Shown: positions 1 to 32,000 of the stretch, one piece after another
Numbering within the stretch: the first letter of the stretch is position 1
Layout: every line of letters starts with the position of its first letter
Source of the DNA: Candidatus Saccharimonadota bacterium
Lineage (GTDB): Bacteria > Patescibacteriota > Gracilibacteria > Absconditabacterales > Absconditicoccaceae
Assembly (NCBI GenBank): GCA_000503875.1
Contig: CP006913.1
Span: 960,001 to 992,000 of the forward strand
Direction of reading: 5' to 3'
Length of the DNA stretch: 32,000 bases
Translations under genes and position numbers: made by a program
The notes under the pieces: generated by a model
What the model saw: only the letters and a program-made list of their open reading frames with translations
What the model was told of the DNA's origin: nothing
The model's database searches: none

Positions 1-3000
1 TCTCAAAACCAAACTTGATGAAGTTAAAGCACAAATAAAACTGGCAAAAGAACAAGGAAACCGTGACGGAGTTATCCAACTAACTGCCGATGCTTCGAGG
101 ATTCAACAATCACTAACTCAAGCAGGTAGAGAGCTGAGGAATTATACAAGAACCTGATCGTCAGATATCTCAGTTTTATGAAAAAACTTTCAAGGAGTTA
201 ATACGGAGATACTCAAACAATGAGGGATTATCCAAAGTACCGTTCAGAAAATGAAGGTCACTTTTTCGTGATTAAAAGAGATTATCCTGACTGCTTTTTC
301 TGTTACTGCGATTATTGGATTTGTGAAATCTTTATTCACTCTATCGTCAGAACTCCAGCAGGCAAAAATAGCCTTCACTAATATGTTTAAGAGTGAAGAG
401 ATAGCGATCAAACTTCTTAAACAAATTCAGGCTTTTGCAAAACAAACTCCGTTTGATCAGATGGGACTTATCGACTGAGCCAAAAGACTATCTGCCTACG
501 GTTTCAAAGCAAATCAAATTCTTCCAATCATGAAATCGCTCGGAGATGCTGTGGCTGGTGTGGGTTGAAACCAAGATACCTTAAATGGTGTGATCGTAGC
601 CCTTGGACAGATGCAAACCAAAGGAAAATTGGTGCAACAAGAAGTAAATCAGATCGCTGAAAGAGGTATCCCTATTTTCGAGATTTTGAGAAAAAAACTC
701 GGTTTGACTCAAGAACAATTGGGTAACATCTGAGAACAAGGAATCTCCTCAGCCAAAGCTATCCCATTAATCTTGGAAGGTATCAATGAAAAGTTTTGAT
801 GACTTATGGAACAGCAATCCAAGACCCTTCAAGGAAAGCTCTCAAATATGATTGATAGTTTCAAAATTAAGATGGCAGAGCTTGGATTGGTACTGGCTCC
901 CATTTTCTGAGGTATCATCTCGAGTTTGCAAGCAATCATTACTCCTGTCTTCAATATCCTGATCTTAGGAATCAAGGGGCTATGAGTCGTATTCAAAACT
1001 GTGTTTGATGGTGCAAAACAGGTCTATCAATTTTTTGCTAATAATTTTGTCATCATTACAAAAACAATCCTGGCGACTTTTCTGTCTGCTTTGATTATCA
1101 TGAAACAACAAACGGTCATTACCTTTTTGCAAGGAATCGTGAACACTATTATCAGATGAATGGCGATAGCTTGAACTGCCGTGATTAATTTCTCAAAAGC
1201 CAGTCGATACTTCATAACCAACCTGAGAACAATAGTCGTCGAGGCTACCAGAGCTACGGTCGCCTTTATCAAAAAATGAGTAGCTCTTGCAGTAACTACC
1301 GTCAGAACATATGCACAAATTATAGCCAACAACCTCGCTTCATTATCTTTTCGTAGTCTTGGACTTTCTATTTTAGGTGCATTGAAAAATCTTTTATTGT
1401 TAGGTGCGAGGTTTTTCTTGATCGGTACAATCGTAGCAACCGTAGTGATTGCGATCTATAAAAACTGGAGTGTATTGAAAGAGAAATTGAAACCTGTCTT
1501 TGAGTTTATGGCAAAGGTCTGACAGGCAGTTCCTTGAGCGATAGCCAAAGCATGGAATTTTTGTGTTGATGTTATTTTTGGAGCTATCAAAGGGATATTG
1601 AAGTCCTGAAAGGCTGTCGCTGATTTTCTTAAAAATACTTTCAATGTGGATATTGGAAGTGCAAAGATTGATAAATATATCTCAGATATTGAGAACATGA
1701 GACAGAAACTTCAAACCAATGAAGGAGAAATCAAATCGGTATTTGATGGGATCAAAGAAGAGGCAGTCTGAGCCTTTGAATTTGTAAAAGATAATGTCCT
1801 GGGACTTGGTGATGCTACCAACCTCCTGTGAGGTGATGTTTTATCGTTGAATGGAAAATTTGATGATATGTGAAATGCTTCTGAATCGGCTGGTAAAAAA
1901 TGATCCAAAGCAACCCAAGAAGCCAAAGACCAACTTGCTGAATTAAAAAAAGAAACTGAGCAAGTAGAGAAAGCAAACGACAGACTAGAAAAAGCAATAA
2001 CCAATGTCACTGATGCACAGCAGGAATATAACGATGCGGTTATTGATACCACCAATCAAATCAAAAACAATCTCAGAGAAACCCAAAGAGAATATGATAA
2101 AACTATCAAGAGAATCAAAGAAACAAGAGATGAAGAATTGAAAAATATCGAGATAGAAAGACAACAAAACAAGTCCAAAAACACTGAGGACTTTGTAAAA
2201 TCTCAAGCCGAAGATCTCGCAAAATCACAACAAGAACAAACCAGTCTACAAACCAAATTGAATGGAGAAAGTGATAGTGATAAGAGAACAGAACTTCAAC
2301 AAGAAATCAATGCCGAGATACAAAAGCAAATCCAACTCCAAAAAAATCTTGATGATTTAAGGAAATGAGCTCAGGGAGATCAAAAAGCAGTATTGGATCA
2401 AATCATCCAAGAACAGCAAGCTAGGGCAAAAATGACAGAAGAACAGAGAGCCTATTATGATTTCCAAAGACAGCAACTCGATGTCGATAAAAAAGCTCAG
2501 GATGATTCTGGTAAAGCAAACCAAAAAGCACTAGATGATCAAAAGAAAGCTGAAGAAGATTTGGCTAATGCGAGGAATTCTATGGCTATGCAACAAAAAA
2601 TAATCCAGGCATTGGAGAAAGTCAAAACGGTCACCAAAGAACAGGTTGATGGTTTTTTGACTTCAAAATGATTTAGTCAGCTAGATGAAGATAGTCAGAA
2701 ACTCCTAGAAAAATTGATGGATTTGAAATTGAAAATATCTGATGCTATGAGAGATAAAAACACTGCTCAGACAGATGTAAATACACTTTCTAGTAAACTC
2801 CAAACCGATAGTGCAAATACTCAGATCAAGAACATTAAACAAGTCAAAAAGGAATACGATGAAGTGATCGCAAAAGTAAATGAAGCATTGAAAAAATCAC
2901 AAGAACTGTCTGTCGCTTCCCAATCAGTCTGACCAAAAAAATCCGTAGCTTCGAGTATCCAACAAGCAAGTATACCAAGTAGTAGTTCTAGTAGTACTAA

Positions 3001-3616
3001 TCGATCAAGTTCTTCAACTCCTGCGGTAGATGATCAAACGGCTACTGAAACCAAAAAAACAAATGTTCAAGCATTAACCGATTTCAAAAAACAAAAAGCT
3101 GATGAAGATGTCGTCAATCAACAAACAGCGATGGGTTCAGAACTTCAAGTTCATCTCACTACTATCGCACAAATCCAAACAGCACAGGTTCAATCCATAA
3201 ATGTCATGAGACAGAACTGGCAAAATTACTACATAAATCTGATAAATATTACTAGATCAGCAGTGAATGTTTTAGTTTGAGAATATAGCAGGCTGGCTTC
3301 CCAACTTTTATATGTCATAGCTCTCCAAGCTAGAGCAAGGTCAGGAAAATGATATGCGAGTGGTTGATTTACTTGATGAACAGACAGAAACAGGGTCGCT
3401 GGAATTGTGCATGAATGAGAATATGTAGTTCCGAAATGGATGGTCGATAAATACACACCACTTGTCATGAACCTCGAACAGATTAGAGGGAGAGGCTTTG
3501 CAAACTGAGGATACACTTCAACAACGAATAGATCAGTGAATATCAATGGAAACATCCATGTAGGGTCAGGTTTTGATCTTAATCAACAAATGGATTACTG
3601 GAAATGGAAGATTTAG
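1..3616 (+). CDS. Phage tail tape measure protein (5' partial; codon phase starts at nt 2)
   Basis: The frame is open from the window edge to TAG 3614-3616 when TGA is sense. It contains a TP901-type TMP core (FTNMFKSEEIAIKLLKQIQAFAKQTPFDQMGLIDGAKRLSAYGF, LGQMQTKGKLVQQEVNQIAERGIPIFEIL, EKFGGLMEQQSKTLQGKLSN). A hydrophobic central segment and a long K/E/Q-rich coiled coil (about 1.9-3.2 kb) follow. The C-terminal motif is GKGYASGGFTGG..VAGIVHEGEYVVP. Confidence 0.9.
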
Positions 3617-3653
3617 TTTTACTCTCAAATTTTAGTTTTTAATTTACTCTTTG

Positions 3654-4529
3654 ATGATAGGAAAAAATTTTTATTGGGATGGGCAAAGTATCATGCATCA
3701 GACCGCAGACTTTAGAATTGCACTTTCTGATGTCCAATGGAGAAAGTTGAAAGTGTCTGATGATAAACAAGATATCATTTGATACCATGGAACTCTTACC
3801 TGACCAACCTTTGCAAGATGAAGAAGTATTGTTTTGGAAGGATTAATCATCGCAACAACTAGAGCTCAGACTTCTATGGGTATGGATCGGCTGGATATCA
3901 TGTTTGCTTTGCAATGAATCCCATCGACCGTAGAAGAAAAAGAATTCAAAATAATCGATGAGCAAGACAGAGAGCGATCAATCAAATGCAAAGTCGATCT
4001 GCCTGTAGATTATGAAATTGAAGATGATAACGATCACAACGATGGAGCTTTGAGAAGATGGAGAGTGACACTTTTTGCACAAGACCCGAAATTCTATTCT
4101 TTGATTGCTAGTGTCTTTGAAGGTATAGAAGGTAATTACTGAGGGTTTCAATTTCCAACTGCGATGAGTAGTCAACGAAATATGAGCTACAATGAAATTA
4201 ATTGTATCACGACTTCCAATGCTGATGAACCAGTGAAAATATCTATCAATGTGGTTACTTCAATTTTCACACCACTAACGATCTATAATGTCACAGCCAA
4301 TAAGTGGTTTATGTTGAATATTGATGCCGTAGAATGAGATGTTATTATTATCGATGCTAAGAATCAAACAGCAACTAAAAACTGAATAAACATTTTGTGA
4401 ACGAGAGTACCTTGATCCCAACGACCAACGGTAAAAGGTATGACAAAATATGTTATTTATGATGTAAGTTGAGGTATCTACAATACTGATTTCCAAGTGA
4501 CCGTTTCTTTTAATAATTCACTTTTGTAA
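3654..4529 (+). CDS. Distal tail protein (Dit-like, siphovirus tail component)
   Basis: ATG 3654 to TAA 4527-4529, 291 aa, with no TAA/TAG in frame (checked codon by codon). It sits immediately downstream of the TMP, the canonical Dit position. The assignment rests on synteny and size. Confidence 0.6.
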
Positions 4530-4532
4530 CCT

Positions 4533-5588
4533 ATGATTATCGGCTATGTCTACGATAGACAAAAAAACTTAATCTGACAGATATTCAATGTTTTTTGATT
4601 TGAATGTACGATTAAATTGAATGATATCTCGACTTGAGAACTCACGATCATGAACGAGCATATGGATGATATCTTAAACATTCTCAAAGAAAATAATCGT
4701 ATCAAAATAATGGAAAACAACGATGGTACAGAAAATACACTCATTGAATGATATATCAGAGGGATAGAAGCTACTTTGAAAAATACCGTCATCAAAATTG
4801 AAGACTATCTCAGTTTTTTGGATGACAAAATTTTGTATACGGCTATCAATTTTACAGGTCAGGTCGATGTCCTTTTACAAACAATACTCGATCAAATCAA
4901 TGCAAGGGAAGATACAGGTTTGGTATTAGATTGCAGTGTCACTGATACCATCACAAAACAGTATGCTAAATGAGATAGCTTTTTCAGTGTCCTCAAAGAC
5001 CTCAGAGAAAACAACTATGAATTTATTGTCAGAGATTGAACTTTGTATTTTAGAGATACGATCTGAACTGATAGATCACTTATCAATAATGAGTATAGAG
5101 AATTTATGCGAGATGTTAATTCTCCATTGGATAGAACTATCAGAGATGCCAAAATGGTTATGGATATAAAACAGATGTGTAATTGCTGTATTGGAAAAGA
5201 TGGGACTACTTATGGTTCATATGAAGATGCTGATAGTATAACCGATTTTTGAAGAGTTGAAAGATCATTCACGAATAGTTGAAACATCCAAAAAGCTACC
5301 CAAAACTATGTCTTGGAAAGGAAGGACTCGATAAGGGAGTTCGATATTTCTCCTAATGTTAGCAATTTCTTTTATTGTGATCTTGGGGATATTGTCAGGG
5401 TGTATATCAATTCATGAAACGATCTGATGTTTTATGATGGTACCTTGAAAGTTATCGAAAAGTCATACACCGCAGGAGAGATGTGAAAAGTGACCTTCAA
5501 ACTCAGTAAAAACAAAGTCAAAGTCCAGGAACTTAACGAAAAACTCAAAGAGATCTCTGCAAGAGTGAAAAGTTTAGAATTGAAGTAA
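4533..5588 (+). CDS. Tail-associated / baseplate hub protein (Tal N-terminal or Sipho_Gp37-like)
   Basis: ATG 4533 lies 3 nt after the Dit stop and the gene ends at TAA 5586-5588 (351 aa). It holds the third position of the TMP-Dit-Tal triad and ends in a C-terminal coiled coil (KVQELNEKLKEISARVKSLELK). Confidence 0.55.
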
Positions 5589-5655
5589 TAGATTTATTTT
5601 TTCTTGTCATGAGTAAAATGCGATCAATCTTATTTATCAATTGATCGTATACCTC

Positions 5656-8600
5656 ATGGAAAGATGCTCACTACTTAATGGAAATACTCTCAATCAAGAT
5701 AGCGATTATTCGGCACCATTACTTGCCTTAACTGATGGTTGAGTAATTGAGGGACTAGAACTTTCGTATCTCAGTTGAAGTAACTTTGAAGTCAGTCCTG
5801 GAAGCTGTCTGATTAAATGTATCAAAACCAATGGCGATAAAATATTGGTGCATTATCAAAGCACAGAAACGGTGGCTTTGTCTTTTTCGTGATTAAAAAA
5901 AGTATGGGTAGAAATTAGTCAACAAAATTTAGATAATCCATTATTGAATCCAATCACAGGACTTGGTATCGGTCAGATCAAATACTGAGATGCTTATCCA
6001 ACCAAAAACTATGTAGCTCTCGCAAGTGTTAATGAAGACAACGAGGTTACAAGTGATCAGCTGGTTATCAAAAATATCAATACCATTATCAACCATGCGA
6101 TCGCACAAATCCAAATCGGTGCGACCACTTTTTCGGCGACTTCAACATGAGCAACAAACAGCTACAATATAGAATATGCCTGAGCTATCCCAACAAGTGA
6201 TGAAGGCAGTCCTCTGACTATTCCACAAAACATTTTATTATATTTCAAAGCTCATCAAACCAATACTTGAAGTGCGACTATCTCTGTAAATACCACCGCC
6301 TGAACATTAACCGCCACACTCAAAAAAATGTTGAATGTGAATTTGAATGCCTGAGATATTAAACAAAACCAACGAGTGATCATGCAACGAGATGGTATGA
6401 ATTTCCAAATGCAATCTCAACCTGGTCAGGTTCCTGTAGGTTCAATCCAAAATGTATCAGTCCAAGGACAAGTCTGAGAAGATGTCTCTGTCTGACAAAT
6501 AGGGTTTGTGTGAAAATGAGTGACCGATAAAATGAGACGAGAACAGCTTGATGCGAGTACGATCTATAATGTCGGAGATGGAACCAATATCAAACTCAGA
6601 GCGATGTTTCTAACAAGTCGTGATAATATTCTCAGAAGAGTTACAATCAATCTTTGAAAAGTATGATCGCCAAGTGATCAAATCTATTGTAGACTTTATG
6701 CTACTGATGGAGAGACTTTGCTTGCATCAAGTAGCAACTATTTCAATAGCTCGGCACTGACTTCAAGTAACGAACAGAAAAACTTTTTTTTCAACGATAT
6801 CGTTTTGCAACCACAGACTAAATATTTTGTTGCTTTTGAAAGGACTGGGGGTAATGATGTGAACAACTATTATACTTTGAGAGCTTGCAATACTCAGCTT
6901 ATTTATCCGATGGGATTCATCGAAAAATATAATGGATCAGCTTGGGAGCGATTGCAAGGATATATTTGGATGATATTACAACTGGGATACAATCATGAAT
7001 CCTGAAAATGGTATCCTTCACAACCTGAATATGACAGCACCGCATTGATGGACTGAGTTTTCAATCAAAACAAAATCAAAGACGAGGTCTGTGAAGTTAT
7101 CCAATGATGAACAGCCAATGTTTTTTCTCTGCTAACCCAAAATAATAACTACTTTCTGAATAACCTTGATTCATGAAATAAGAACCTTTCTTGGAATACC
7201 ACGACCCATTTTGGACACTCAATTGGTAACCAAGAAAAAGCATCCATGAGTTTCAAACTCTCGAGTTGAATGACCGTTGATAAAATTTTCTTAGCTATTC
7301 TGAGGGTCTGAACTCCGACAGATAATTTTGTTGTCTCGATCCAAACTGATGATAATGGAAAACCATCCTGAAGTCTTGTCCATGCAAATGCGACCTTCAG
7401 TTCTTCATGAACCAAACTCATGACCCAGGCATATAGGAAACTGTATCAGTTCAACTGATCTTTCTCGCTTAATGACAGCACTTTGTATTGGATTGTTTTG
7501 GAAAGAGATGGCTGATTAAACACCTCAAACTATTATTCTGTTTTGATCTACAACTCCGATGTGTACACGAGAGGTAATATGATGACTTATACCAATTCGA
7601 TTTGGGTTACCCAATCTTGGGATATGTTTTTCTCGTTTACCAACGAATACGATGGGATCAGACAGAGTGTGTATAATGAAAACAGAAACTTTGGAAACAG
7701 TAGTACTTGAATGGTTTTTACTTGTCAGGCTTTTCATTCATACACTCCGATAACGATCAAATCTATCATGCTGGCTATGTGGCAGATTTCTAGTCCGACC
7801 GATTGAGTGAAGATCAGGATCGAGAAGAATTTTTCTCAAACTCCATGAACAACCTGATATTCAAATGTTTCATGGAATAGTACTGAACAGACCTTTGGTA
7901 CCGTTTTAATAGAAAAGTATGCACAAAGTTTCACAGGTTCTGAATACCTAGAAACCTGATTATTAAATCTGTATCTGAAAAAATCTAATGTTCCGAGTGA
8001 TGAATTCATGGTCAGAATTGAAACCGACTATGAAGGAAGTCCAAGTGGAACCCTTATCAATACCAGTGCTCAAAGAACACTCTCACCATCATTACTAACC
8101 ACCTGACGAGATTGGTACACCCTTCAATTCCCAGGAAGCCTCAAGATGGAAAAAACTACGAAATATTGGGTGGTCTTAACAAGAACCTGAACCGTGAGTG
8201 CTACCAATTACTTTTCTATCTGAAAGCATAGTTCTAACCCTTATACTTTATGAGAGACCAAGAAATTTGATGGAACCTCATGGATTGCTGATACTTGAGA
8301 TATTATGTTTAGATTCTGAAATACTGATTTTATGATCGATGCACCAAGTGGAGAGCTTGTCGATCCAAATGCTGAGATAACTATCCCAGTAAGTAAAATC
8401 ACAACTGGATTCAAAAATAATTCGTTCGATTTCCCAGGAAGTTTCACTTTGGATAAAAATACGAAATATTGGATTGTGCTTTGAAGGACAGGAACTCAAG
8501 TCAATGCCTGATATTATCAATATGCTATGAATAGTAGTTGACCGTTTATGTATGGACAATACATGGAGTGTTCGAGTGCTAACTTTACAATTTCTAGTAT

Positions 8601-9123
8601 CGAACATAGATCGATGTACTTCAATTTCTGAATTTTGCATGAAAGACCAAAAGGGGTGATTAATGCACAGGTTCCTTCGTTTCTTAATCGATGCACCTAT
8701 GTAGGAAGATCACTCACCAATACTAACATCGCTATCAAAAATAATAGGATGACTGCTGAGGCTACAAAAATTCTGAAAGTTGAATGATGGAGTGCTTACA
8801 GTGCCAGTTGTAATACTTGTAATACAGAAGTCTGGTCATCAGTTTTCACGGTTTGAAATGGAAACCTCAAATTTGAAGTATGATGATCTTGAAGTTTCTC
8901 AACAACATGAAAATTGTATATGGCTGATGACGAGCAGACTTTGATGGCTGGGTTATGAACACTTGTCCAGACCCTTACCACTTGAAACATAACATTTTTG
9001 GCGAATGCTACCAAGAAATACAGGATCAGACTTAATTGAACGACCACCTGTACTACTGGATGTTCGGCTTACCACTATGCTCAGACCACCTTCGAGCCAT
9101 TCCCAGGCAGTTTGATCGCATAA
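5656..9123 (+). CDS. Large modular tail fibre / receptor-binding protein (1155 aa)
   Basis: ATG 5656 (alternative TTG 5641) to TAA 9121-9123. The frame was checked line by line and has many in-frame TGA but no TAA/TAG. It contains 4-5 paralogous modules, each ending in a shared signature: TKYFVAFERTGGNDVNNYY, TLYWIVLERDGGLNTSNYY, TKYWVVLTRTGTVSATNYF, TKYWIVLGRTGTQVNAGYY. Confidence 0.75.
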
Positions 9124-9148
9124 TTTTATTTTCATAAACTTTGAAACT

Positions 9149-24103: not shown

Positions 24104-24136
24104 TTCGTTTGTTTAAAAAAAGATAAAAGGAGGTAT

Positions 24137-25138
24137 TTACTTGGTGGTAGGTTCCTCTTTTTTTGTTTCTGTTAATGTTTCTCCAAAATTTATGATTTCT
24201 TCAAGGAGCTTCTGATCGTTAGGATTTACATAAATATCTGTGATTATTTCTATGACAGAGCTAAGTTCTTCTAAAGTATAAATTCTGTCCGTGATGATTC
24301 TTTTCTTCAATCAAAGCTTAAGTTTCTCTATAAAATTATTGGCTTCATCGTTAGTAAATTTGGTAAGTGAATCTTTGTTGTAGAGTTCTTTACAAAATTC
24401 TTTTTTCTTGGTATCACTATCTTCATATTTCATAAGATCAAAAATCTGATTAATTTTCTTTTTCTGTTCAGATGAAATCACATCTGCTTTAACTGATTTT
24501 GTTTGTAAGGCATCGACATTTACAGGCTCTGTATTTTCTACCTGAGCAAGGCTGACTTTCTTTTTTGATTCTGTTTCTCAATCAATAACTTGTGCATTCC
24601 GTATCTCTTCTTCAAGATATGGCATTCATCCAATATCCTCAGGAAAGCAAAGTCTCATACCTTGTCCGATCAAAGTCTTCTTGGTCATGAATTTCGGTTT
24701 TTCATTCCAGTTCTTGTTTGGAGATCAGTCTTTTTTACATTGAACGATCTCATCTCGAGTCACTTCCCAGATGAATGGATTATTCCAATCTTTACGGTGG
24801 ATAGTGATTTTACCTCCTGCCACTTTACCGTCATCATCTTCAATGATTTCTGTTTCCCAGCCATCAAGCTTTCAACTCGCTTGTGCTTTTTGAAGGTAAA
24901 CCGTGTAGGCAGTCACAGGTTGCATGTCGTTTTTTCCAAGTTTGCTATTCCAAAATGGGATAGGATAGATTTCTCTTTTGTAAGGGTTGAGATTGTTTGC
25001 TAGAGCAATTCAAACAAACAAGGCTTTCTGTTCATCAGAGATTTCGTTTTTGCATTGGCTGAACAAGAAATCTTCTAGAGTGTCCTTGCTGATCGCCATA
25101 GTCTTTTGGACTGTTGCTAGTTGTTTTTTGTCGTTCAT
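24137..25138 (-). CDS. recT: RecT-family single-strand annealing protein
   Basis: 333 aa, frame checked. It has EQKALFVGIALANNLNPYKREIYPIPFWN, VTAYTVYLQKAQASGKLDGWE and KPKFMTKKTLIGQGMRLCFPEDIGG, followed by an acidic/lysine-rich C-terminal extension. Confidence 0.8.
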
Positions 25139-25147
25139 GATAGTTGG

Positions 25148-26470
25148 TTATGAAGATGTAAAAGAAGTAACTTTCTTTGTAAAACGGCTCCTTATCTCAT
25201 TGATGCGATCTTTCGTTTCTTGAGAGGGTGGGGCTATTTCTTTTTCTGGTGGACTTGTTGGCGGAGATAGAATGCTACGAATTTTGGAAGTGACATGCTT
25301 CCTTTCTTGTTCGATAGTTATCCTAGCAAAGACATTTTCGAGTGTTCCATAGAATTTATTGATATGTTTCAAGAACTCTCAGAGATCAAAATGCTCGATT
25401 TTAAAGAAGAGGTATTTTGAAAGCCTGTGTTCCTTGATCAGATTCAAAACTTTTGCAAAGATTGATATCCTGGAAATGAAATCTTGAAGGGTGATAGAAT
25501 CAATAATGTTGTATAAAGCTTTCTTTGTTTTCTCGTCCATTCGATCGTTCCTTCCTGTAAGAGTATTTCGGTTGGCGATAAATTCCTGACCTTCGTTTTC
25601 AACTTTTAGCATCCTTTGTTTAAATCCGTCAGGTTCCCCCTCCACACCTCCCCCTATACTATTTAAAGAAGAAGTGGGGATATTTCTTTTATCTAGTTTC
25701 TTATCTCTAGTATATATACTCTTATTATTGTGACTGTTTGATGACTGTTTCGTGTCTATTCCCTGGCTGTTTGGTGGCTGTTCGATAATAAATGGTGCTA
25801 TAACTTCATAATTAGCAAGCCTATAAATCGCTGACTGTTTCGTGGCTGTTTTTTTGTCACTTTTTTTCATAAATCATAACGAAATTAATTTGTCTATTGC
25901 TCTTACTATTTTTCAAGACTGGCTCTGTTGTAATCCGAAGTGTGCATACTCATTTTTACTCAGAGTAAATTCTCATTGATCTAACCCTTCAGGACTTGGG
26001 TAGGGATACTTCCATACTCTCAAAGCTCCTGTAACCATAATAGCCAGCCAAAGAGGGTTCTCTATAAGAAGAGATACTCTGTAGTCATGACGATCATCAG
26101 AAAGCTTGATAAAGTAGTGCATAAAAGTATCTTCCATTAATGAATAAAAAAGATGTCTGACCGCAGTGGAACAAACATCTTTTTCATTCGTTCCATGAAT
26201 GTTCTTGCGAAGATAGGGTCATGTTTGAAGCGATAGATTTGCATCTATCCATGACACTACCGCTTCAAGAATAGGTGTTCATAGAATGCGATCATAGGAT
26301 GGGAGTGAAACGAGGGAGTACTTGTGAGGTCGTTCTCTAGTTTCAGAAGACTCCCAAAACCTAATGATGCGATTGCTGTATACTTTTTTCTCGAACCATT
26401 TACAAGAGAAAAACGCTGGTTCGAAGATAGTCCTGTTCGGGAGGGTAAAGTGGTATTTTTGACTTTTCAT
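25148..26470 (-). CDS. Replication-initiator-like protein (winged-helix, lambda O-like organisation)
   Basis: This is a single 440-aa frame. Three track ORFs plus one untracked segment are joined by in-frame TGA codons, with no TAA/TAG between 26470 and 25148 (checked). A wHTH-like segment reads FTLSKNEYAHFGLQQSQSGKIVRAIDKLISLGF. The low-complexity linker is encoded by an iteron-like array. Function is inferred from position and architecture. Confidence 0.55.
25731..25853. repeat. Iteron-like array of 11-nt units, TG(A/G)CTGTTT consensus
   Basis: Consecutive 11-nt units start at 25731 (tgactgtttga), 25742 (tgactgtttcg), 25753 (degenerate), 25764 (tggctgtttgg) and 25775 (tggctgttcga). Two more start at 25832 (tgactgtttcg) and 25843 (tggctgttttt). 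An AT-rich tract, tagtatatatactcttattatt, lies adjacent at about 25709-25730. Confidence 0.7.
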
Positions 26471-26526
26471 CTTTGATATAGTAGGTAGTAACTAAAATCC
26501 GAGCGGTTCGAAATTTCTTTTAGTGA

Positions 26527-26554
26527 CTATTAACTAATCTTAGCTCTTTATCAA
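26527..26554 (-). promoter_or_regulatory. Candidate leftward early promoter (TTGATA-N16-TAATAG) for the replication/recombination operon
   Basis: The -35 is the reverse complement of 26549-26554 and the -10 is the reverse complement of 26527-26532. It lies about 57 nt upstream of ATG 26470 and shares the 16-mer AGCTCTTTATCAAGTC with 22760-22775. Confidence 0.45.
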
Positions 26555-26802
26555 GTCTTTATAGGCTCTTTAATTGTCTTTTCTCGATATGTAGACCTAT
26601 TGTATCTCGAGATTATAGACAAATCTAGCCAATAAGGGTATGGTTTGGGAAACATATTCCGAAATAAACCAAAAAATAGAAGATTAGTAAAGTTATGATG
26701 TATGCTTTCAAAAGAAAATATTTGTATTTCTATTATTTAGAATATTTCACTTTTCTTGGTTTGGGAAATCTGGATACAAAAGATGTATTTTTCACAAACT
26801 AA

Positions 26803-26830
26803 AAAGAGGATACTTTTAGCATCCTCTCTA
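26803..26830 (-). terminator. Hairpin with a T-run on the minus strand
   Basis: The stem is agaggat (26805-26811) / atcctct (26821-26827) with a 9-nt loop. The minus strand continues as TTTTA. Confidence 0.4.
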
Positions 26831-26836
26831 TAGTTT

Positions 26837-27001
26837 CTATGTCATACTTTCTACATATTTTTGGTAAACATCTAGTTGTTCTAAAAATTCCTTGCATTTA
26901 ACCAAGCATTTCTGTATAGTAAGCATCGCATTAGCCGAGCTATCAAAGCTCTTTCAATCCGCAGGTTGCGGTTCGATAGAAGTCCTGTTCGGGTATACCA
27001 T
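26837..27001 (-). CDS. Possible 54-aa ORF (alternative reading of the candidate sRNA locus)
   Basis: ATG 27001 to TAG 26837-26839, reading MVYPNRTSIEPQPADG.... There is almost no room for a promoter between it and the terminator at 27025-27056. Its similarity to the initiator N-terminus is confined to a 24-nt patch. Confidence 0.25.
26892..26920 (+). promoter_or_regulatory. Candidate promoter TTGCAT-N17-TATAGT
   Basis: The -35 is at 26892-26897 and the -10 at 26915-26920, with exactly 17 nt between them. It points towards the strong terminator at 27025-27056. Confidence 0.45.
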
Positions 27002-27056
27002 AAAATATTAATTTACGAAAATACAGAAAAAACCGAGATAAAAATCTCGGTTTTTA
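26927..27056 (+). ncRNA. Candidate ~130-nt small RNA, antisense-type regulator of the initiator mRNA
   Basis: It is bounded by the promoter at 26892-26920 and an intrinsic terminator. Two short 5' hairpins are predicted (gagct/agctc 26937-26951; ccgca/tgcgg 26959-26971), followed by an unstructured stretch containing GGTTCGATAGAAGTCCTGTTCGGG (26970-26993). This stretch matches 26418-26441 at 20 of 24 positions on the same strand, so the RNA would be complementary to the leftward mRNA. Confidence 0.35.
27025..27056. terminator. Bidirectional rho-independent terminator
   Basis: The sequence aaaaaaccgagat-aaaa-atctcggttttt forms a 9-bp stem (27031-27039 / 27044-27052) flanked by an A-run and a T-run. 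Confidence 0.75.
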
Positions 27057-27083
27057 AAAATAATTTTAAAGGGATCTATAATC

Positions 27084-27167
27084 TTAATCTTCAATCTCAT
27101 CAATTGTTTCAATCTCAGGAGGATCGTATATTTCCTCATGATCAAAACAAAAATTTCGTAGTTTCAT
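27084..27167 (-). CDS. Tiny acidic ORF (27 aa)
   Basis: The ORF reads MKLRNFCFDHEEIYDPPEIETIDEIED, from ATG 27167 to TAA 27084-27086. It lies just upstream of the terminator on the minus strand. Confidence 0.3.
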   Translation of the reverse strand: MKLRNFCFDHEEIYDPPEIETIDEIED

Positions 27168-27262
27168 AGTACACTATTTAATGTTTTTTTATAAGACACA
27201 CATAAACAACACAGTTCAAAATAAGAAATTCCTATCTCAAACCAAATAGAGCTTATTGGAAA

Positions 27263-27382
27263 TTAAGAATGTCCTTCTCCCAAAATAAGTTCATCCGTAG
27301 TAGCCTCATACACATTACCAGCACCTGTTTCTTCCTGAATTTCATCACGAAGATCATCGGTAATTTCTACATCACCTGCCAT
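27263..27382 (-). CDS. Tiny acidic ORF (39 aa)
   Basis: The ORF reads MAGDVEITDDLRDEIQEETGAGNVYEATTDELILGEGHS, from ATG 27382 to TAA 27263-27265. It lies downstream of the candidate promoter at 27459-27486. Confidence 0.35.
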   Translation of the reverse strand: MAGDVEITDDLRDEIQEETGAGNVYEATTDELILGEGHS

Positions 27383-27458
27383 AATAGTAGTTGTTCAGAA
27401 TTAAACCCCTGTCCCCGGCTCTAAGTTCTGTATTTAAAGATTTTGTTTTTTCAAAACA

Positions 27459-27486
27459 AATATAATTATATAAATCAAAAAGTCAA
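27459..27486 (-). promoter_or_regulatory. Candidate promoter TTGACT-N16-TATATT (minus strand)
   Basis: The -35 is the reverse complement of 27481-27486 and the -10 is the reverse complement of 27459-27464. It is divergent from the promoter at 27604. Confidence 0.45.
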
Positions 27487-27603
27487 TATACAAAAAAAAT
27501 ACGCCTTTTATATATACATCATATTTGATCTAAAAAAACACTAAAATTCACATATATTGCTATATCTAAAAAAAGCCTTGGTTAGCTCTTACAAAAAATA
27601 AGC

Positions 27604-27631
27604 TTGACATTTAATAGAATTTATATATAAA
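27604..27631 (+). promoter_or_regulatory. Candidate promoter TTGACA-N16-TATAAA
   Basis: The consensus -35 is at 27604-27609 and the -10 at 27626-27631, about 39 nt upstream of ATG 27670. Confidence 0.5.
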
Positions 27632-27669
27632 AAAAATGACAAAAAAATACCAACAAAAAAACATACGCT

Positions 27670-28242
27670 ATGTACAACAAAATTATTTCAATTCCGGTAT
27701 TTGTGATCGGAATTTGTTTATTGGTTCTTTTTACTGAACCTAAGATGGGTAGTACCGCCCTTTCTGGCTTCCAATTGGCCGGAATCATAATCGGAGGAAT
27801 CGGTTTTCTATGGATGTTATGCTCTTTGATGGATACATTGATGAAATCTACAGAACAGCTTAGAACATTCAAAGAGACGATACGACTGCAGAAAAAACTC
27901 GCCATTAAAATTGATTTCAAAAACTCAATCGAAAAAGAGTTTAAAGAAATTCTTACACAAACATTTCCCAATTTCGAAAAAGATTTGGTTTCCATGTTTT
28001 CATTTGAAAATAAAGAATCCAAAGAAGCATTTCTTGCTGTTTGTCCCGAATTAGAATCAGGTTCTTCATTTGAAAAATATGTTGATGAACTTTCGGATGC
28101 AATGGAAGAAATCCAAGAAGTAAGAATTGAACTCGATGAAAAACTTGCAGAAATTGCTTTTTACAACGAGGATCCATGGCTTTGGTTTAGGCGCCCTATG
28201 CCTGCCAATATAAAAATCTTGATCGATGTTTTCGAAAAGTAA
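27670..28242 (+). CDS. Membrane protein (190 aa, two N-terminal TM helices, acidic helical C-terminal domain)
   Basis: This track ORF has an ATG start and a TAA stop, with no internal TGA. It is flanked by its own promoter and terminator. Confidence 0.7.
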   Translation: MYNKIISIPVFVIGICLLVLFTEPKMGSTALSGFQLAGIIIGGIGFLWMLCSLMDTLMKSTEQLRTFKETIRLQKKLAIKIDFKNSIEKEFKEILTQTFPNFEKDLVSMFSFENKESKEAFLAVCPELESGSSFEKYVDELSDAMEEIQEVRIELDEKLAEIAFYNEDPWLWFRRPMPANIKILIDVFEK

Positions 28243-28262
28243 TATTATTAATTTAGAAAGAT

Positions 28263-28294
28263 TCCCTTGGCTTTTTCAGCTGAGGGATTTTTTT
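28263..28294 (+). terminator. Rho-independent terminator
   Basis: The stem is tcccttgg / ctgaggga (8 bp including two G-U pairs), followed by seven T. Confidence 0.5.
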
Positions 28295-28306
28295 ATTTTG
28301 CTCTTC

Positions 28307-28334
28307 TTGCTTTCTCCTCGCAAAACTCTATACA
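28307..28334 (+). promoter_or_regulatory. Candidate promoter TTGCTT-N16-TATACA within a conserved box
   Basis: The box CTTGCTTTCTCCTCGCAAAACTCTATACA recurs at 29202 and, in diverged form, at 30646. Confidence 0.45.
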
Positions 28335-28364
28335 AAATAAACTTTTTATTTAATAAGCAATTTC

Positions 28365-29138
28365 ATGAAAAGACTCTTCATTATTTCAGTGATCGCGTTG
28401 GTTCTTTCTGGATGTTCATTAAACACTATGCCTTCACAAGAAACCCCTACACAATCTTGAGAAACTATAGAATCAATAGCCGAAATTACTAATACAACAG
28501 AAGGAATAATAACAAATGCAATACCATTAATTCATTCTTATGAACCAAAAACTATTTCATGAGACGTAGCAGAGGATGTGTATTTAAATAACAGCAAATC
28601 TTTTGAATGATGTGTTCTTTTGGATGAAGAAGAACGTGGATTAACAGATTATGATTGCAAAAAAATAAATGGATACGTACACACATATCAATCTCCAGAA
28701 TTATGAATAAAAATAACATACGATGAAAATTATGATTTTTTAGGAAAGAAACTTTTCTTTGCGCAAAATCCTATAGATCCAATTAAAAAACATGAAAATA
28801 TAATTTTTGATGTTAATAAACCAAATATATTTATTAAATTGATTGAAAAAAATCCAAATCAGACTCCTCAACAAATTATGGAAGCTTTACCTAAACAAAC
28901 AAATTGCATATATACTACAGCAAAAGATATTAGTATAAAAAATGATAATATAACAATTTATGCATATCAAGAAGATGAATCAAACGCTGGAGAATGCTAC
29001 GATGAAAACTACAATTATACAGAATATATATTTAGCAAAACAAAATCTGAATATTATTATCAAAAAGTTTTTAGTAGTGATTGTGCTCCATGACCATGTA
29101 ATGCTTTGGAATGAACAACTGAATTATTTTTAAAATAA
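28365..29138 (+). CDS. Lipoprotein (257 aa)
   Basis: The signal peptide and lipobox read MKRLFIISVIALVLSGC. The frame is open to TAA 29136-29138 with several in-frame TGA. Confidence 0.75.
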
Positions 29139-29160
29139 CTTTTAAGTATAGCTAACAATT

Positions 29161-29196
29161 AAACCACTTCTCGACATTTCCTGAAGTGGTTTTTTT
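29161..29196 (+). terminator. Rho-independent terminator
   Basis: The stem is aaaccacttc (29161-29170) / gaagtggttt (29183-29192), followed by a T-run. Confidence 0.7.
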
Positions 29197-29202
29197 CTAA
29201 TC

Positions 29203-29230
29203 TTGCTTTCTCATCACAAAACTTTATATA
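29203..29230 (+). promoter_or_regulatory. Candidate promoter TTGCTT-N16-TATATA within a conserved box
   Basis: The box CTTGCTTTCTCATCACAAAACTTTATATA lies 30 nt upstream of the murC ATG. Confidence 0.45.
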
Positions 29231-29259
29231 CAAATCACTTTAAACGATAAACTAATTCT

Positions 29260-30645
29260 ATGGGAAATATAGTCCTCGTATGAGCATGATGAACAGGAAT
29301 GTCAGGGGTTGCAGGAATTTTGCAGGAACTCTGATTTACCAATATTATTTGCATCGACAGTACCCAAAGTCAACTCACCGATAATCTTCAAAAAAAATGA
29401 TTCAAAGTTATCATCGGACATGGAATTTATCAGCCAAAAATAGACGACGCCATTATTTATTCTGAAGCTGCGGTAAATAGCCCAGAAGTAACATGAGCAA
29501 GAGCACTCATTTCTCAGGAACAAAAAATGATGCTGATTATGAATTATTTTGAATTTTTAGGAGAAGTATCTAAATATTTTACAACAATTTGAATCACCGG
29601 AACCAACGGCAAAAGTTCAACCACTGCCCTGGCGATTTACGGAGCAAAAGATATTCCAACGTTTTGATTAGGTATTCTCTGAGCAATGGTTCCTGATTTC
29701 AATAATCAAAGCTACCTTATCAATCCAAATCATAAGGAAGAAATTAAAACAATTTTCATCAAAATTTTCACGGGAAAAACTCCAACAGCTATTGACCACA
29801 AAAAATTATTATTTATAGTTGAAGCCTGCGAATATAAACGTCATTTCTTACATCTCGATCTCGATTATGCAGCTATCACCAATATAGAATATGACCATGC
29901 TGATTACTACAAAACCTTTGATGATTACAAACATGCCTTCAAAGAAATGTTAACGAAATTAAAACAAAAATGCTTTGTTCTCCAATGATTCCTAGAATCA
30001 AATCCAGAATTTAAACTATCCCAAAATATCCAAGAAATCCCAGAAAGACAAGAACATTTTGACTATATCTTTTGACCACATACCAGCAAAAATGCAGCAC
30101 TTACATTAGCATTATTACGCACGCAAGACTCAAGTATATCAACACAAAAAATCCAACAATTCAAAGGCCTCCGACGCAGATTAGAATATCTCGGCACCAC
30201 TCAAAATTGAGCAAAACTGTTTTCCGATTATGGACATATGGCATCATCAATCGTTATTGGATATCAATCGCTCAAACAAAAATTTCCCGACAAAAAAATA
30301 ACAGCAATTTTTCAACCGCACCAGATCAATAGAATTTTTACAGGACGAGATGATTTTGTGCAAAGTTTCAAAGGGTTTGATAAAGTCATTATTTACGATA
30401 TCTATGCTGCGAGAGAAGACATCGCTCATTTTGATTTTTCCAAAAGAGGACAAAATATCAACAGTGTAGAAGAACTTTGACATAATTTTGCAAACGCTTG
30501 TTGAGGAACATATAGCAAGGAACGAGCGGAAATTAAACAACAAATAGAACAAGCTGACAACAATCATATTATTGCTATTTTTTCTGCAGGAGATATAGAT
30601 TACGAAATTCGTACTCATCTTTCAATTAAACCATCTACAATTTAA
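29260..30645 (+). CDS. murC: UDP-N-acetylmuramate--L-alanine ligase
   Basis: 461 aa. The N-terminal VGAGGTGMSGVAG has three Gly encoded by TGA. Further motifs are the P-loop GITGTNGKSSTTA, VEACEYKRHFLHLDLDYAAITNIEYDHADYY, SDYGHMASS and IFQPHQINR. The frame was checked line by line. Confidence 0.9.
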
Positions 30646-30646
30646 G

Positions 30647-30674
30647 TTGATTTCTCTTACAAAAACAATAATCT
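30647..30674 (+). promoter_or_regulatory. Candidate promoter TTGATT-N16-TAATCT (diverged copy of the conserved box)
   Basis: The sequence GTTGATTTCTCTTACAAAAACAATAATCT starts immediately after the murC stop. Confidence 0.3.
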
Positions 30675-30708
30675 GACAGCAATATAATTTTTATATTAAC
30701 AAAAACAT

Positions 30709-31242
30709 ATGAAAAAATTATTCATCATCACAGCAAGTTTTGGAATGTTGTTTTTGATGTGATGTCAAAAAGTAACTATTATTCCAGATGAAAGCTTAAC
30801 AGGAAATATCCAAGAAATAACATGATCTGTAGAAGAGACAACAGGATTTATAATCCAATCATTTGAAGATTGTTTAAACTCAGGCTTTCCGATAATGGAA
30901 AGTTATCCAAGACAATGTAACGATGGTAAAACAACATATGTTGAAGAAATCGTACAAGAACTTACTGGAGAAAACACAAACGTAGACAATACAACTTGAC
31001 AACAAATAGGAGAAACTGGTACAAAACAAGAGGATTCTACAGGGACCAATCTTAGTATACTTCAACAAAAATTAAGAGCAATGATGGAAAGAAGAAATCA
31101 ACAAACACAAAGCGGAACCACAACAAATAGTTGAACAACCAGTACTACTATACAAACAACAACAGTATCAGACAACGAACAAGTAACAGAAGATGATATT
31201 GAAAATCTAGAAAACATTATTGATACCATTATAAAAAAATAA
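30709..31242 (+). CDS. Lipoprotein (177 aa, Thr/Gln-rich C-terminal half)
   Basis: The N-terminus reads MKKLFIITASFGMLFLMGC, with the lipobox Gly encoded by TGA 30760-30762. It also has a CLNSGFPIMESYPRQCNDGKT motif. The stop is TAA 31240-31242. Confidence 0.75.
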
Positions 31243-31336
31243 TTTGAATACCCAAAGAATCTTAAAATATTGCTTTGGGATATGAAAATTATACTCACAA
31301 AAATTAGTATAAATTTAACTCTTCAAAAACAAAAAA

Positions 31337-31630
31337 ATGGCATTTTTTATGGAAATATGTAAGGGAATATTCTTTTTTATCACTATGGTAGTCGGTCTAT
31401 TTTTCCTAAGAGGACAAGATATTGTAAACCAACAATCATTTGTGATTATAAAAGAGATTTTGATGCCAGGTTACTTGATTTTTTGTGGAATTATGTTAGG
31501 ATATATTCTAGCTCGCATAAATATAGGATACAACGAACAACATGACGACGAAACCAAAATATATACAAAATATTTCCTAATAGGAACTAGCGTTTGACTT
31601 ATTCTTGCTGTTATTTACATTGTTTTGTAA
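31337..31630 (+). CDS. Small membrane protein (97 aa, about three TM helices)
   Basis: The track ORF is extended through TGA 31595-31597 to TAA 31628-31630. Confidence 0.55.
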
Positions 31631-31632
31631 TT

Positions 31633-32000
31633 ATGAAAAAAAACATCATAGGGTTAGTTATAGTACTATGATTATTCATGTGATGATGTACAAAAAAAGT
31701 AGAAAAACCCATCATTTTTGATCAGTATCATATTATTTTAACAACAGAATATATCTATCAAGAAATTGCTGCAAATACTATGGCCTGAGCTCCAGCAATT
31801 AAACAATATATACAAGAAAATGAGACATGATTTGCTGGTTCGATTATTATTGCAAAAATACAATTAGAAACAGGTATGGATATCTCAACATTTGCAACAT
31901 ACAATAGTAAATCAATAACAAGAAAAATAATGGGAAGTAATAAACCATCTACAGATAAATTCTCGTTTGAATGTGGCTCATGATCTATAGATTGAATTCT
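31633..32000 (+). CDS. Lipoprotein (3' partial)
   Basis: The N-terminus reads MKKNIIGLVIVLGLFMGGC, with both Gly of the lipobox region encoded by TGA. The frame is open to the window edge. Confidence 0.65.

What the first reader, a model, noticed from the sequence alone, without database searches (positions are those of the whole stretch)
1..32000. TGA is a glycine codon throughout the window (genetic code 25), in both prophage and chromosomal genes
Reading TGA as a stop shreds every gene. Reading it as sense gives uninterrupted frames of 0.3-3.6 kb that end only in TAA or TAG. The amino acid can be read from invariant motif positions. Examples: Walker A G-E-N-G-S-G-K-S with the first two Gly as TGA (16919-16942); SAM motif ACGSG (TGA 13010); CGCG (15247); MurC V-G-A-G-G-T-G-M-S-G (29281-29292); the G of YIG (21295); the M15 SxHxxGxAxD motif (10250); lipoboxes LMGC and FMGGC; TMP YASGGFTGG. 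Trp (code 4) would not fit any of these positions. This places the host in Gracilibacteria/Absconditabacteria, and the phage shares the reassignment.
Basis: partly seen in the sequence, partly recalled or inferred. Interest (0 to 1): 0.7.

Follow-up and report, generated by a model that had tools for sequence, protein, structure and literature searches.

The report
TGA encodes glycine: known SR1 genome

Summary
Observation confirmed and interpretation supported, but already known.

**Source.** With TGA read as Gly, ten window ORFs are letter-for-letter identical to GenBank proteins AHB41664–AHB41686 of candidate division SR1 bacterium RAAC1_SR1_1. This is a closed 1,177,760-bp genome. Kantor et al. 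2013 already reported UGA=Gly and a tRNA-UCA for it.

**TGA = Gly.**
- Under table 11 the longest ORF is 200 aa. With TGA as sense, 22 genes cover 89% of the window and end only in TAA or TAG.
- In nine standard-code homologues of the type IIG enzyme, residues opposite TGA are Gly 102/290 and Trp 0/290. Seven of those columns are invariant Gly.
- Against a related prophage, changed TGA codons pair with GGN 67 of 87 times and never with TGG.
- Pfam scores rise 114 bits in total for Gly over Trp.

**Prophage.** Window 1–26990 is absent from an otherwise identical contig. Its right end lies in the last 6 nt of a tRNA-Leu(CAA) gene. It uses TGA as densely as the chromosome. Liu et al. 2023 already described this pattern for Absconditabacteria prophages.

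**Correction.** "Code 25" is incomplete. CGA (and probably CGG) reads as Trp here, in prophage genes too. Shulgina & Eddy 2021 inferred CGA=Trp for this same assembly.

The parts
1..26990 (.). Right-hand part of an integrated prophage. It carries tail, lysis, defence-cargo and recombination modules, all dense in in-frame TGA.
   Evidence: Pfam TMP_3. PHROGs Dit, holin (weak), endolysin, exonuclease and RecT. The region is absent from the otherwise identical contig L003. A related prophage has the same modules.
26991..32000 (.). Chromosomal flank with lipoproteins, membrane proteins and MurC, also using TGA as a sense codon.
   Evidence: 100% identical to L003 7732-12741. In L003 this stretch follows tRNA-Leu(CAA), SSB and SecA with no prophage in between.
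2..3616 (+). Tape measure protein, with its 5' end cut by the window. [quoted passage not shown]
   Evidence: Pfam TMP_3 scores 81.6 bits with TGA=W and 89.9 bits with TGA=G. The motif was checked.
3654..9123 (+). Three tail genes: Dit-like (3654-4529), 351 aa (4533-5588) and 1155 aa (5656-9123). They carry 10, 11 and 50 TGA codons respectively.
   Evidence: PHROGs distal tail protein. Codon-by-codon comparison with the related prophage L001.
10028..10390 (+). Endolysin-like peptidase. TGA at 10250-10252 falls on the Gly of the SxHxxGxAxD motif.
   Evidence: PHROGs endolysin families, best E=1e-10. Motif checked. There was no hit in Pfam or PDB.
10570..11691 (+). SoFic-type Fic protein with 6 TGA codons and one CGA codon at 11317-11319.
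   Evidence: PADLOC SoFic 3e-96. The CGA column is Trp in 115 of 144 aligned residues from 150 diverse representatives (6 gaps). TGA codon 134 is Gly in 103 of 150. PDB SoFic structures have Trp at the CGA position.
11810..14881 (+). Type IIG restriction-modification enzyme with 35 TGA and 4 CGA codons. TGA 13010-13012 is the last Gly of SAM motif I. CGA codons at 11948-11950 and 13928-13930 fall on invariant Trp.
   Evidence: PADLOC REase_MTase_IIG 6e-165. Nine standard-code plasmid homologues were aligned. PDB CamA and TaqI alignments.
14890..16725 (+). Type II N6-adenine methyltransferase with 22 TGA codons. TGA 15247-15249 is in motif I (CGCg), and another TGA precedes NPPY.
   Evidence: PADLOC MTase_II 2e-115. 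PDB BseCI and CamA have Gly at the motif I TGA and at codons 83 and 255; the TGA before NPPY is Gly in CamA but Ala in BseCI.
16799..19228 (+). AAA_13 / PDC-S06 ATPase with 25 TGA codons. The Walker A motif gENgSGKS lies at 16919-16942.
   Evidence: Pfam AAA_13 scores 66.0 bits with TGA=W and 89.4 bits with TGA=G. Motif checked.
19255..21948 (+). DUF2779 protein (19255-21078; 14 TGA, 3 CGA) and DUF4357 / PDC-S14 protein (21088-21948; 8 TGA, with YIg at 21289-21297).
   Evidence: Column statistics over 120 homologues. Pfam and PADLOC hits.
23078..26470 (-). Recombination and early module: PD-(D/E)XK exonuclease (23078-24103), RecT (24137-25138), and a 440-aa protein with no family match (25148-26470).
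   Evidence: Pfam and PHROGs. Codon comparison with L002.
29260..30645 (+). MurC with 14 TGA and 3 CGA codons. TGA at 29281, 29287 and 29290 gives the three Gly of GxGGxGMSG.
   Evidence: PDB MurC structures 9ir5, 6cau and 1gqq have Gly at these three positions and at two further TGA positions. Homologue columns are Trp/Gly mixtures, because many public entries were translated with table 4.

Best explanation
The window comes from the closed genome of candidate division SR1 (Absconditabacteria) bacterium RAAC1_SR1_1. In this organism UGA is not a stop codon. It is read as glycine throughout, and in this window it is the single most-used Gly codon: 279 TGA against 309 GGN in total. Only UAA and UAG terminate.

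The published mechanism is a dedicated tRNA-Gly with anticodon UCA, with no release factor 2 to compete. That step is taken from the literature and is not visible in the window.

Bases 1-26990 are the right part of a temperate phage. Its right end sits in the last 6 nt of a tRNA-Leu(CAA) gene. Its structural, lysis, recombination and defence-cargo genes use TGA=Gly as heavily as the host, so they can be translated correctly only in a host with this code.

A second, published reassignment is also visible. CGA, and probably CGG, is read as Trp rather than Arg, in chromosomal, cargo and phage genes alike. The real code is therefore table 25 plus CGA/CGG=Trp.
For: **Identity**
- Ten TGA-to-Gly translations are exact matches to AHB41664-AHB41686 of RAAC1_SR1_1, on a contig of 1,177,760 bp.
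- Kantor 2013 (PMC3812714) describes that same genome as closed, using UGA=Gly and carrying a tRNA-UCA.

**TGA is a sense codon**
- Longest ORF is 200 aa under table 11 and 1204 aa with TGA as sense.
- Coding density is 0.89 and in-frame TGA codons are evenly placed along genes.

**TGA = Gly, from standard-code homologues**
- In nine plasmid homologues of the type IIG enzyme, residues opposite TGA are Gly 102/290 and Trp 0/290. Seven columns are invariant Gly.
- PDB structures of MurC, CamA, BseCI and TaqI have Gly at motif positions. I counted Gly at 13 of 35 aligned TGA positions (my tally by eye from the printed top-hit alignments) and Trp at none. The binomial p is 7e-7.
- Fic codon 134 is Gly in 103 of 150 representatives.

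**TGA = Gly, from DNA-level synonymy**
- Against a related prophage (73-95% aa identity), TGA pairs with TGA 93 times, GGN 67 times, TGG 0 times and other codons 20 times.
- In 120 DUF2779 homologues, columns opposite TGA (G 0.37 / W 0.32) match columns opposite GGN (G 0.39 / W 0.29). The W residues there come from table-4 mistranslation in public databases.

**Composition**
- TGA+GGN gives 4.9-7.3% Gly. Reading TGA as Trp would give 2.7-4.2% Trp.

**Pfam**
- The Gly reading beats the Trp reading in 9 of 10 proteins, by 114 bits in total.

**Prophage**
- An empty-site contig and the tRNA-Leu gene define the right end. PHROGs confirm phage functions.
- Liu 2023 (PMC10746230) reports that all Absconditabacteria prophages are dense in in-frame TGA.

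**CGA/CGG = Trp**
- Fic codon 250 is Trp in 115 of 144 aligned residues.
- Type IIG codons 47 and 707 are Trp in 9 of 9 homologues, and Arg appears 0 times in 36 residues opposite CGA.
- Between the two prophages, CGA/CGG exchange with TGG 7 times and never with AGA, AGG, CGT or AAA.
- Shulgina & Eddy 2021 list GCA_000503875.1 as UGA=Gly, CGA=Trp, CGG undetermined.
Against: - No tRNA gene and no release-factor gene lie in the window. The decoding machinery was therefore not seen here.
- In the Fic gene only 1 of 6 TGA codons sits on a Gly-dominated column. Taken alone, those six columns fit Ser or Ala slightly better than Gly, although Trp is strongly disfavoured at -8.4 bits.
- One CGA codon (type IIG codon 741) aligns to an invariant Ala and another (codon 267) to a variable column.
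- CGG=Trp rests on only two CGG-to-TGG exchanges.
- All evidence is comparative. There is no peptide-level proof from this window.
Confidence: 0.97

Rival explanations
1. TGA is read as tryptophan (translation table 4, as in Mycoplasma and some insect endosymbionts).
For: Table 4 gives the same long ORFs as table 25. Many public translations of these genes use it, for example P0001 and P0153. Prodigal originally chose table 4 for these scaffolds (Kantor 2013).
Against: - No Trp in 290 residues opposite TGA in standard-code homologues, and seven invariant Gly columns.
- No TGG among 87 changed TGA partners.
- Columns opposite the true Trp codon TGG contain W, R, F or Y but not G, whereas columns opposite TGA match columns opposite GGN.
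- Pfam scores total 114 bits lower than with Gly.
- It would imply 2.7-4.2% Trp and only 2.1-4.4% Gly.
Confidence: 0.01
2. TGA has two meanings: Gly inside genes, but still a stop (or an inefficiently read, regulatory codon) in some contexts, for instance in phage late genes.
For: Ambiguous or context-dependent stop codons exist in other lineages (my own knowledge, not tested here). Nothing in a DNA window can measure read-through efficiency.
Against: - All 23 complete ORFs end in TAA or TAG, and none needs TGA as its stop.
- TGA codons are evenly spread along genes, KS p=0.78.
- TGA density is as high in tail genes (33 per 1000) as elsewhere.
- TGA sits at catalytic Gly positions, where termination would destroy the protein.
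Confidence: 0.02
3. The TGA-interrupted frames are decayed pseudogenes or non-coding DNA, and TGA keeps its standard stop meaning.
For: Under table 11 the window looks almost gene-free, with a longest ORF of 200 aa.
Against: - TAA/TAG-free frames of 0.3-3.6 kb in 32% GC DNA are not expected by chance.
- The frames match ten Pfam families.
- The proteins are conserved at 73-95% identity in a related prophage, with mostly synonymous TGA/GGN exchange.
Confidence: 0.001

Closest known systems
Translation table 25 (candidate division SR1 / Gracilibacteria code; Campbell et al. 2013, Kantor et al. 2013)
   Same: UGA is a frequent in-frame Gly codon and only UAA/UAG terminate. The genome is low in GC (32% in the window). 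The organism is the very RAAC1_SR1_1 genome for which this code was reported.
   Different: Nothing differs for UGA. Table 25 as defined does not include the CGA/CGG change, which the window also shows.
Absconditabacteria CGA/CGG-to-Trp reassignment (Shulgina & Eddy 2021, Codetta)
   Same: CGA aligns to conserved Trp in standard-code homologues and exchanges with TGG, not with other Arg codons. Codetta inferred CGA=Trp for this assembly.
   Different: Codetta left CGG undetermined for this assembly. Here two CGG-to-TGG exchanges, both in prophage genes, point to Trp. The paper did not examine phage genes of this clade. In the held literature I found no report of phages following this reassignment.
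Code-25 prophages of Absconditabacteria and Gracilibacteria (Liu et al. 2023, mBio)
   Same: An integrated phage with tail, lysis and recombination genes dense in in-frame TGA, so it is compatible only with the host's code.
   Different: That study judged the code from coding density and TGA counts. It does not mention RAAC1 in its main text. Here the amino acid is read from alignments, and one insertion boundary at tRNA-Leu(CAA) is mapped.
Translation table 4 (UGA=Trp; Mycoplasmatales, Entomoplasmatales, insect endosymbionts)
   Same: UGA is a sense codon and the genome is low in GC.
   Different: The amino acid is Gly, not Trp. According to the literature the mechanism is an extra tRNA-Gly(UCA) rather than a wobble-expanded tRNA-Trp.

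Membership tests
Translation table 25 (SR1/Gracilibacteria code) | UGA occurs in frame within most protein-coding genes | tested here: met
   279 in-frame TGA codons in 9723 codons. 23 of the 24 ORFs called contain at least one.
Translation table 25 (SR1/Gracilibacteria code) | UGA specifies glycine | tested here: met
   Gly 102/290 and Trp 0/290 opposite TGA in nine standard-code homologues. PDB motif positions are Gly. TGA exchanges with GGN in 67 of 87 changes.
Translation table 25 (SR1/Gracilibacteria code) | Termination only at UAA and UAG | tested here: met
   The 23 complete ORFs end in TAA (20) or TAG (3). There is no TGA enrichment toward gene ends.
Translation table 25 (SR1/Gracilibacteria code) | A tRNA-Gly with anticodon UCA is encoded in the genome | not testable with these tools
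   No tRNA gene in the window. The whole genome could not be fetched. Kantor 2013 reports a tRNA-UCA in RAAC1.
Translation table 25 (SR1/Gracilibacteria code) | Release factor 2 (prfB) is absent | not testable with these tools
   Not in the window, and absence cannot be shown from 32 kb. Shulgina & Eddy note that Gracilibacteria lacking the reassignment do keep RF2.
Translation table 25 (SR1/Gracilibacteria code) | The organism belongs to Absconditabacteria or Gracilibacteria | tested here: met
   Exact protein identity to candidate division SR1 bacterium RAAC1_SR1_1. All 120 best MurC homologues that carry a name are Absconditabacteria or Gracilibacteria.
Translation table 4 (UGA=Trp) | UGA aligns to conserved Trp and exchanges with UGG | tested here: not met
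   Trp 0/290 opposite TGA. No TGA/TGG exchanges. Pfam scores are lower than with Gly.
Absconditabacteria extended code (CGA/CGG=Trp) | CGA aligns to conserved Trp in standard-code homologues, not to Arg | tested here: met
   Fic codon 250 is Trp in 115 of 144 aligned residues. Type IIG codons 47 and 707 are Trp in 9 of 9. Arg appears 0 times in 36 residues opposite CGA. One codon (741) falls on an invariant Ala.
Absconditabacteria extended code (CGA/CGG=Trp) | CGG also means Trp | tested here: inconclusive
   Only 4 CGG codons in the called ORFs. Both aligned ones exchange with TGG in the related prophage. Codetta gave '?' for this assembly.
Absconditabacteria extended code (CGA/CGG=Trp) | tRNA(UCG) and tRNA(CCG) carry Trp identity elements | not testable with these tools
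   No tRNA genes in the window. Shulgina & Eddy list one tRNA(UCG) and one tRNA(CCG) for this assembly.
Temperate tailed phage integrated at a tRNA gene | Phage structural and lysis genes are present | tested here: met
   TMP_3. Dit, holin (weak) and endolysin.
Temperate tailed phage integrated at a tRNA gene | The element is absent from an otherwise identical chromosome, with the junction at a tRNA gene | tested here: met
   L003 is 100% identical to window 26991-32000. Identity stops 6 nt before the 3' end of tRNA-Leu(CAA).
Temperate tailed phage integrated at a tRNA gene | An integrase and the second attachment site (attL) are present | tested here: not met
   No integrase family hit among the window proteins. 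The left end of the element lies outside the window.

The most novel reading that the evidence does not exclude
The prophage and its defence cargo follow not only the stop-to-Gly change but also the host's sense-codon reassignment CGA/CGG=Trp. That would make it a phage tied to a host by two codon changes at once. The two CGG-to-TGG exchanges would also settle CGG=Trp for this genome, where Codetta was undecided. I found no report of phages following the CGA/CGG change in the held literature. It would also mean that the GenBank (table 25) protein records for this genome carry Arg where the cell inserts Trp.
Probability: 0.8. Interest if true: 0.3.

Novelty: already known. Interest (0 to 1): 0.12.

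Why it matters
For gene calling it matters a great deal. Table 11 shreds every gene here, and table 4 puts Trp at catalytic Gly positions. As a discovery it adds nothing. The code of this exact genome was published in 2013, the CGA=Trp change in 2021, and the rule that Absconditabacteria prophages share the host code in 2023.

Two practical points remain.
- Even the correct table 25 mistranslates CGA/CGG. For example, the deposited Fic protein AHB41671.1 carries Arg at residue 250, where 80% of homologues have Trp.
- Many public translations of these organisms are in table 4. Database columns therefore show spurious Trp at Gly positions.

Tried and rejected
- **Concatenated phage query.** A query joining the endolysin, RecT, exonuclease and tape-measure pieces returned only tape-measure hits. 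It gave no column statistics for the other phage genes.
- **PDB for the endolysin-like protein.** No hits even at E=10. The SxHxxGxAxD Gly therefore rests on the motif and on PHROGs endolysin hits only.
- **PDB for RecT.** Only a weak match to lambda Bet (E=0.014). Its three aligned TGA positions fall on non-conserved residues.
- **Representative search with a masked query.** This biases against Trp at the CGA column, which makes that result conservative.
- **Contig look-ups.** NCBI table-25 translations are not indexed by the look-up of encoding contigs. The table-4 twin P0001 worked.
- **Rfam and ARAGORN.** Neither found anything in the window, so the tRNA-Gly(UCA) could not be examined. A collection-wide pattern scan for it was considered and dropped, because no exact sequence of 14 or more bases was available.
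- **Selenocysteine.** Dismissed without a test. About 29 TGA codons per 1000, at Gly motif positions and exchanging with GGN, is incompatible with Sec.
- **Fic alone as a test of TGA=Gly.** Its six TGA columns are mostly variable loop positions and do not single out Gly.

Full report
**1. What the sequence shows**

The window is 32% GC. Under the standard bacterial code it holds 27 ORFs of at least 100 aa, and the longest is 200 aa. If TGA is not a stop, frames of up to 1204 codons appear.

A non-overlapping set of 22 genes then covers 89% of the window. Kantor et al. report a coding density of 0.91 for the genome the window turns out to come from. The 23 complete ORFs end in TAA (20) or TAG (3).

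There are 279 in-frame TGA codons in 9723 codons. They are spread evenly along the genes (KS p=0.78) and do not cluster at gene or domain ends.

**2. Where the window comes from**

I translated ten ORFs with TGA=Gly and looked them up by exact sequence. All ten are identical to GenBank proteins AHB41664.1–AHB41686.1 (locus tags P148_SR1C00001G0876–0898) of candidate division SR1 bacterium RAAC1_SR1_1. They lie on a contig of 1,177,760 bp.

Kantor et al. 2013 (PMC3812714) describe that genome as closed and circular, of the same length. They state that table 11 gave an excess of short, split genes and that table 4 gave normal ORFs. They add that conserved alignment positions indicate UGA=Gly, and that a tRNA-UCA is present. 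The core claim is therefore already published for this very DNA.

**3. Which amino acid TGA encodes**

I used tests that do not depend on the GenBank annotation.

- *Standard-code homologues.* I fetched nine plasmid-borne homologues of the type IIG restriction-modification enzyme (11810–14881). They come from Proteobacteria and Bacillota.
  - The residues opposite its TGA codons are Gly 102/290 and Trp 0/290.
  - Seven columns are invariant Gly, including SAM motif I.
- *Solved structures.*
  - MurC structures have Gly at all three TGA positions of GxGGxGMSG and at two further TGA positions.
  - CamA, BseCI and TaqI have Gly at TGA positions in motif I and at several other conserved positions. 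The TGA before NPPY is Gly in CamA and Ala in BseCI.
  - My tally, made by eye from the printed top-hit alignments, is Gly at 13 of 35 aligned TGA positions and Trp at none. The binomial p is 7e-7.
- *Synonymy at the DNA level.* A related prophage (Logan SRR28201389, 52.7-kb contig; 73–95% protein identity) was aligned codon by codon for eight genes.
  - TGA is paired with TGA 93 times, GGN 67 times, TGG 0 times and anything else 20 times. The "anything else" codons are mostly Ala or Ser.
- *Column profiles.* Many public homologues were translated with table 4, so their W residues mark their own TGA codons.
  - In 120 DUF2779 homologues, columns opposite window TGA (G 0.37 / W 0.32) are indistinguishable from columns opposite window GGN (G 0.39 / W 0.29).
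  - Columns opposite the true Trp codon TGG contain no G among the listed residues.
  - MurC shows the same pattern.
- *Family models.* Re-scoring ten proteins against Pfam gives 750 bits in total with TGA=Trp, 771 with TGA masked, and 864 with TGA=Gly. Nine of ten proteins improve with Gly.
- *Composition.* TGA+GGN gives 4.9–7.3% Gly. TGA=Trp would give 2.7–4.2% Trp.

The one weak spot is the Fic gene. Only one of its six TGA codons lies on a Gly-dominated column (Gly in 103 of 150). The six columns together fit Ser or Ala slightly better than Gly, although Trp is clearly disfavoured.

**4. Prophage versus chromosome**

Phage genes in the window:
- tape measure protein (Pfam TMP_3);
- distal tail protein, a weak holin match and an endolysin (PHROGs);
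- a PD-(D/E)XK exonuclease and RecT.

A Logan contig (L003, 79.9 kb) is 100% identical to window 26991–32000. To the left of that stretch it continues with tRNA-Leu(CAA), SSB, signal peptidase and SecA instead of phage genes. Identity stops 6 nt before the 3' end of the tRNA.

So 1–26990 is an integrated element and 26991–32000 is chromosome. The attL site and any integrase lie outside the window.

| Region | TGA per 1000 codons |
|---|---|
| Tail and lysis genes | 33.0 |
| Cargo genes | 29.6 |
| Recombination genes | 18.8 |
| Chromosomal genes | 24.4 |

The phage clearly shares the reassignment. Liu et al. 2023 (PMC10746230) already reported that all Absconditabacteria and Gracilibacteria prophages are dense in in-frame TGA.

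**5.

In the prophage comparison, TGG exchanges with CGA five times and with CGG twice. CGA/CGG never exchange with AGA, AGG, CGT, CGC or Lys codons. In contrast, AGA exchanges freely with AGG (21 times) and AAA (21 times).

Standard-code homologues confirm this inside the window.
- The single CGA of Fic (11317–11319) is Trp in 115 of 144 aligned residues from 150 diverse representatives (6 gaps), and Trp in the PDB SoFic structures.
- CGA codons 47 and 707 of the type IIG enzyme (11948–11950 and 13928–13930) are Trp in 9 of 9 homologues.
- Arg appears 0 times in 36 residues opposite CGA.
- One CGA falls on an invariant Ala and one on a variable column.

MurC and DUF2779 columns at CGA show R/W or aromatic mixtures and never Lys.

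This is the CGA/CGG-to-Trp reassignment that Shulgina & Eddy 2021 (PMC8629427) reported for Absconditabacteria. Their source table lists this very assembly as UGA=Gly, CGA=Trp, CGG undetermined. "Genetic code 25" is therefore correct for TGA but incomplete. The deposited table-25 proteins carry Arg at these positions.

The small additions here are these.
- Prophage and cargo genes follow this second change too.
- Both aligned CGG codons behave as Trp.
- I found no paper in the held library that links this reassignment to phages.

**6. Mechanism: what is shown and what is inferred**

- *Shown here:* TGA is sense, it means Gly, TAA/TAG terminate, CGA means Trp, and both hold in phage and host genes.
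- *Taken from the literature and not visible in 32 kb:* a dedicated tRNA-Gly(UCA), loss of RF2 (indirectly), and one tRNA(UCG) and one tRNA(CCG) gene listed for this assembly, whose Trp charging was not checked here.
- *Inferred:* the prophage and its defence genes can be expressed correctly only in hosts with this code.

**7. Verdict**

Interest is low. The only mildly new element is that a phage follows the CGA/CGG sense-codon change as well.

Noticed in passing
window 11317-11319, 11948-11950, 13928-13930; in all 34 CGA and 4 CGG codons in the called ORFs: CGA/CGG behave as Trp codons rather than Arg. They align to conserved Trp in standard-code homologues and exchange only with TGG between related prophages. 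This was published for this assembly by Shulgina & Eddy 2021, but it is not part of table 25 and not in the finding.
   Followed up: yes
window 26990/26991; L003 7653-7737: The right end of the prophage maps to the last 6 nt of a tRNA-Leu(CAA) gene. A prophage-free but otherwise identical contig (L003) defines it, and a 191-kb ENA contig (L004) starts exactly at the junction. The phage DNA just left of the junction carries a degenerate T-arm-like stretch (GCGGTTCGA). attL and the core repeat lie outside the window.
   Followed up: partly
window 10570-21948; L002 5137-16765: A defence island sits between the endolysin and the recombination module. The window carries SoFic, a type IIG R-M enzyme, a type II methyltransferase, PDC-S06 (AAA_13), DUF2779 and PDC-S14 (DUF4357). 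At the same position the related prophage carries a different set: N6_N4 methylase with ResIII helicase, DUF2779, GmrSD, and AAA_21 with RloB. It looks like a cargo hotspot.
   Followed up: partly
window 25148-26470 (- strand): A 440-aa protein next to the attachment site has no Pfam or PHROGs match, and a 465-aa counterpart exists in the related prophage. No integrase was found in the window, so this could be a replication or recombination protein of an undescribed kind.
   Followed up: no
window 27670-28242 (+ strand): The first chromosomal gene after the junction is a 190-aa membrane protein with no TGA at all, although it contains about ten GGN Gly codons. The window average would predict roughly five TGA codons.
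   Followed up: no
database proteins P0001, P0003-P0009, P0133, P0140, P0142, P0153: Many public translations of Absconditabacteria genes (Logan, ENA, JGI) were made with table 4 and carry Trp at every TGA. Homologue columns therefore show spurious W/G mixtures, and the same gene appears twice in the collection under two spellings.
   Followed up: yes
window 21900-23100: Gene calls here are uncertain. The two short + strand ORFs I listed (21917-22252 and 22516-22734) are probably not genes. The - strand ORFs 21938-22327 and 22819-23103 fit better with the small - strand genes at the same place in the related prophage, and with the three GenBank locus tags G0889-G0891.
   Followed up: no
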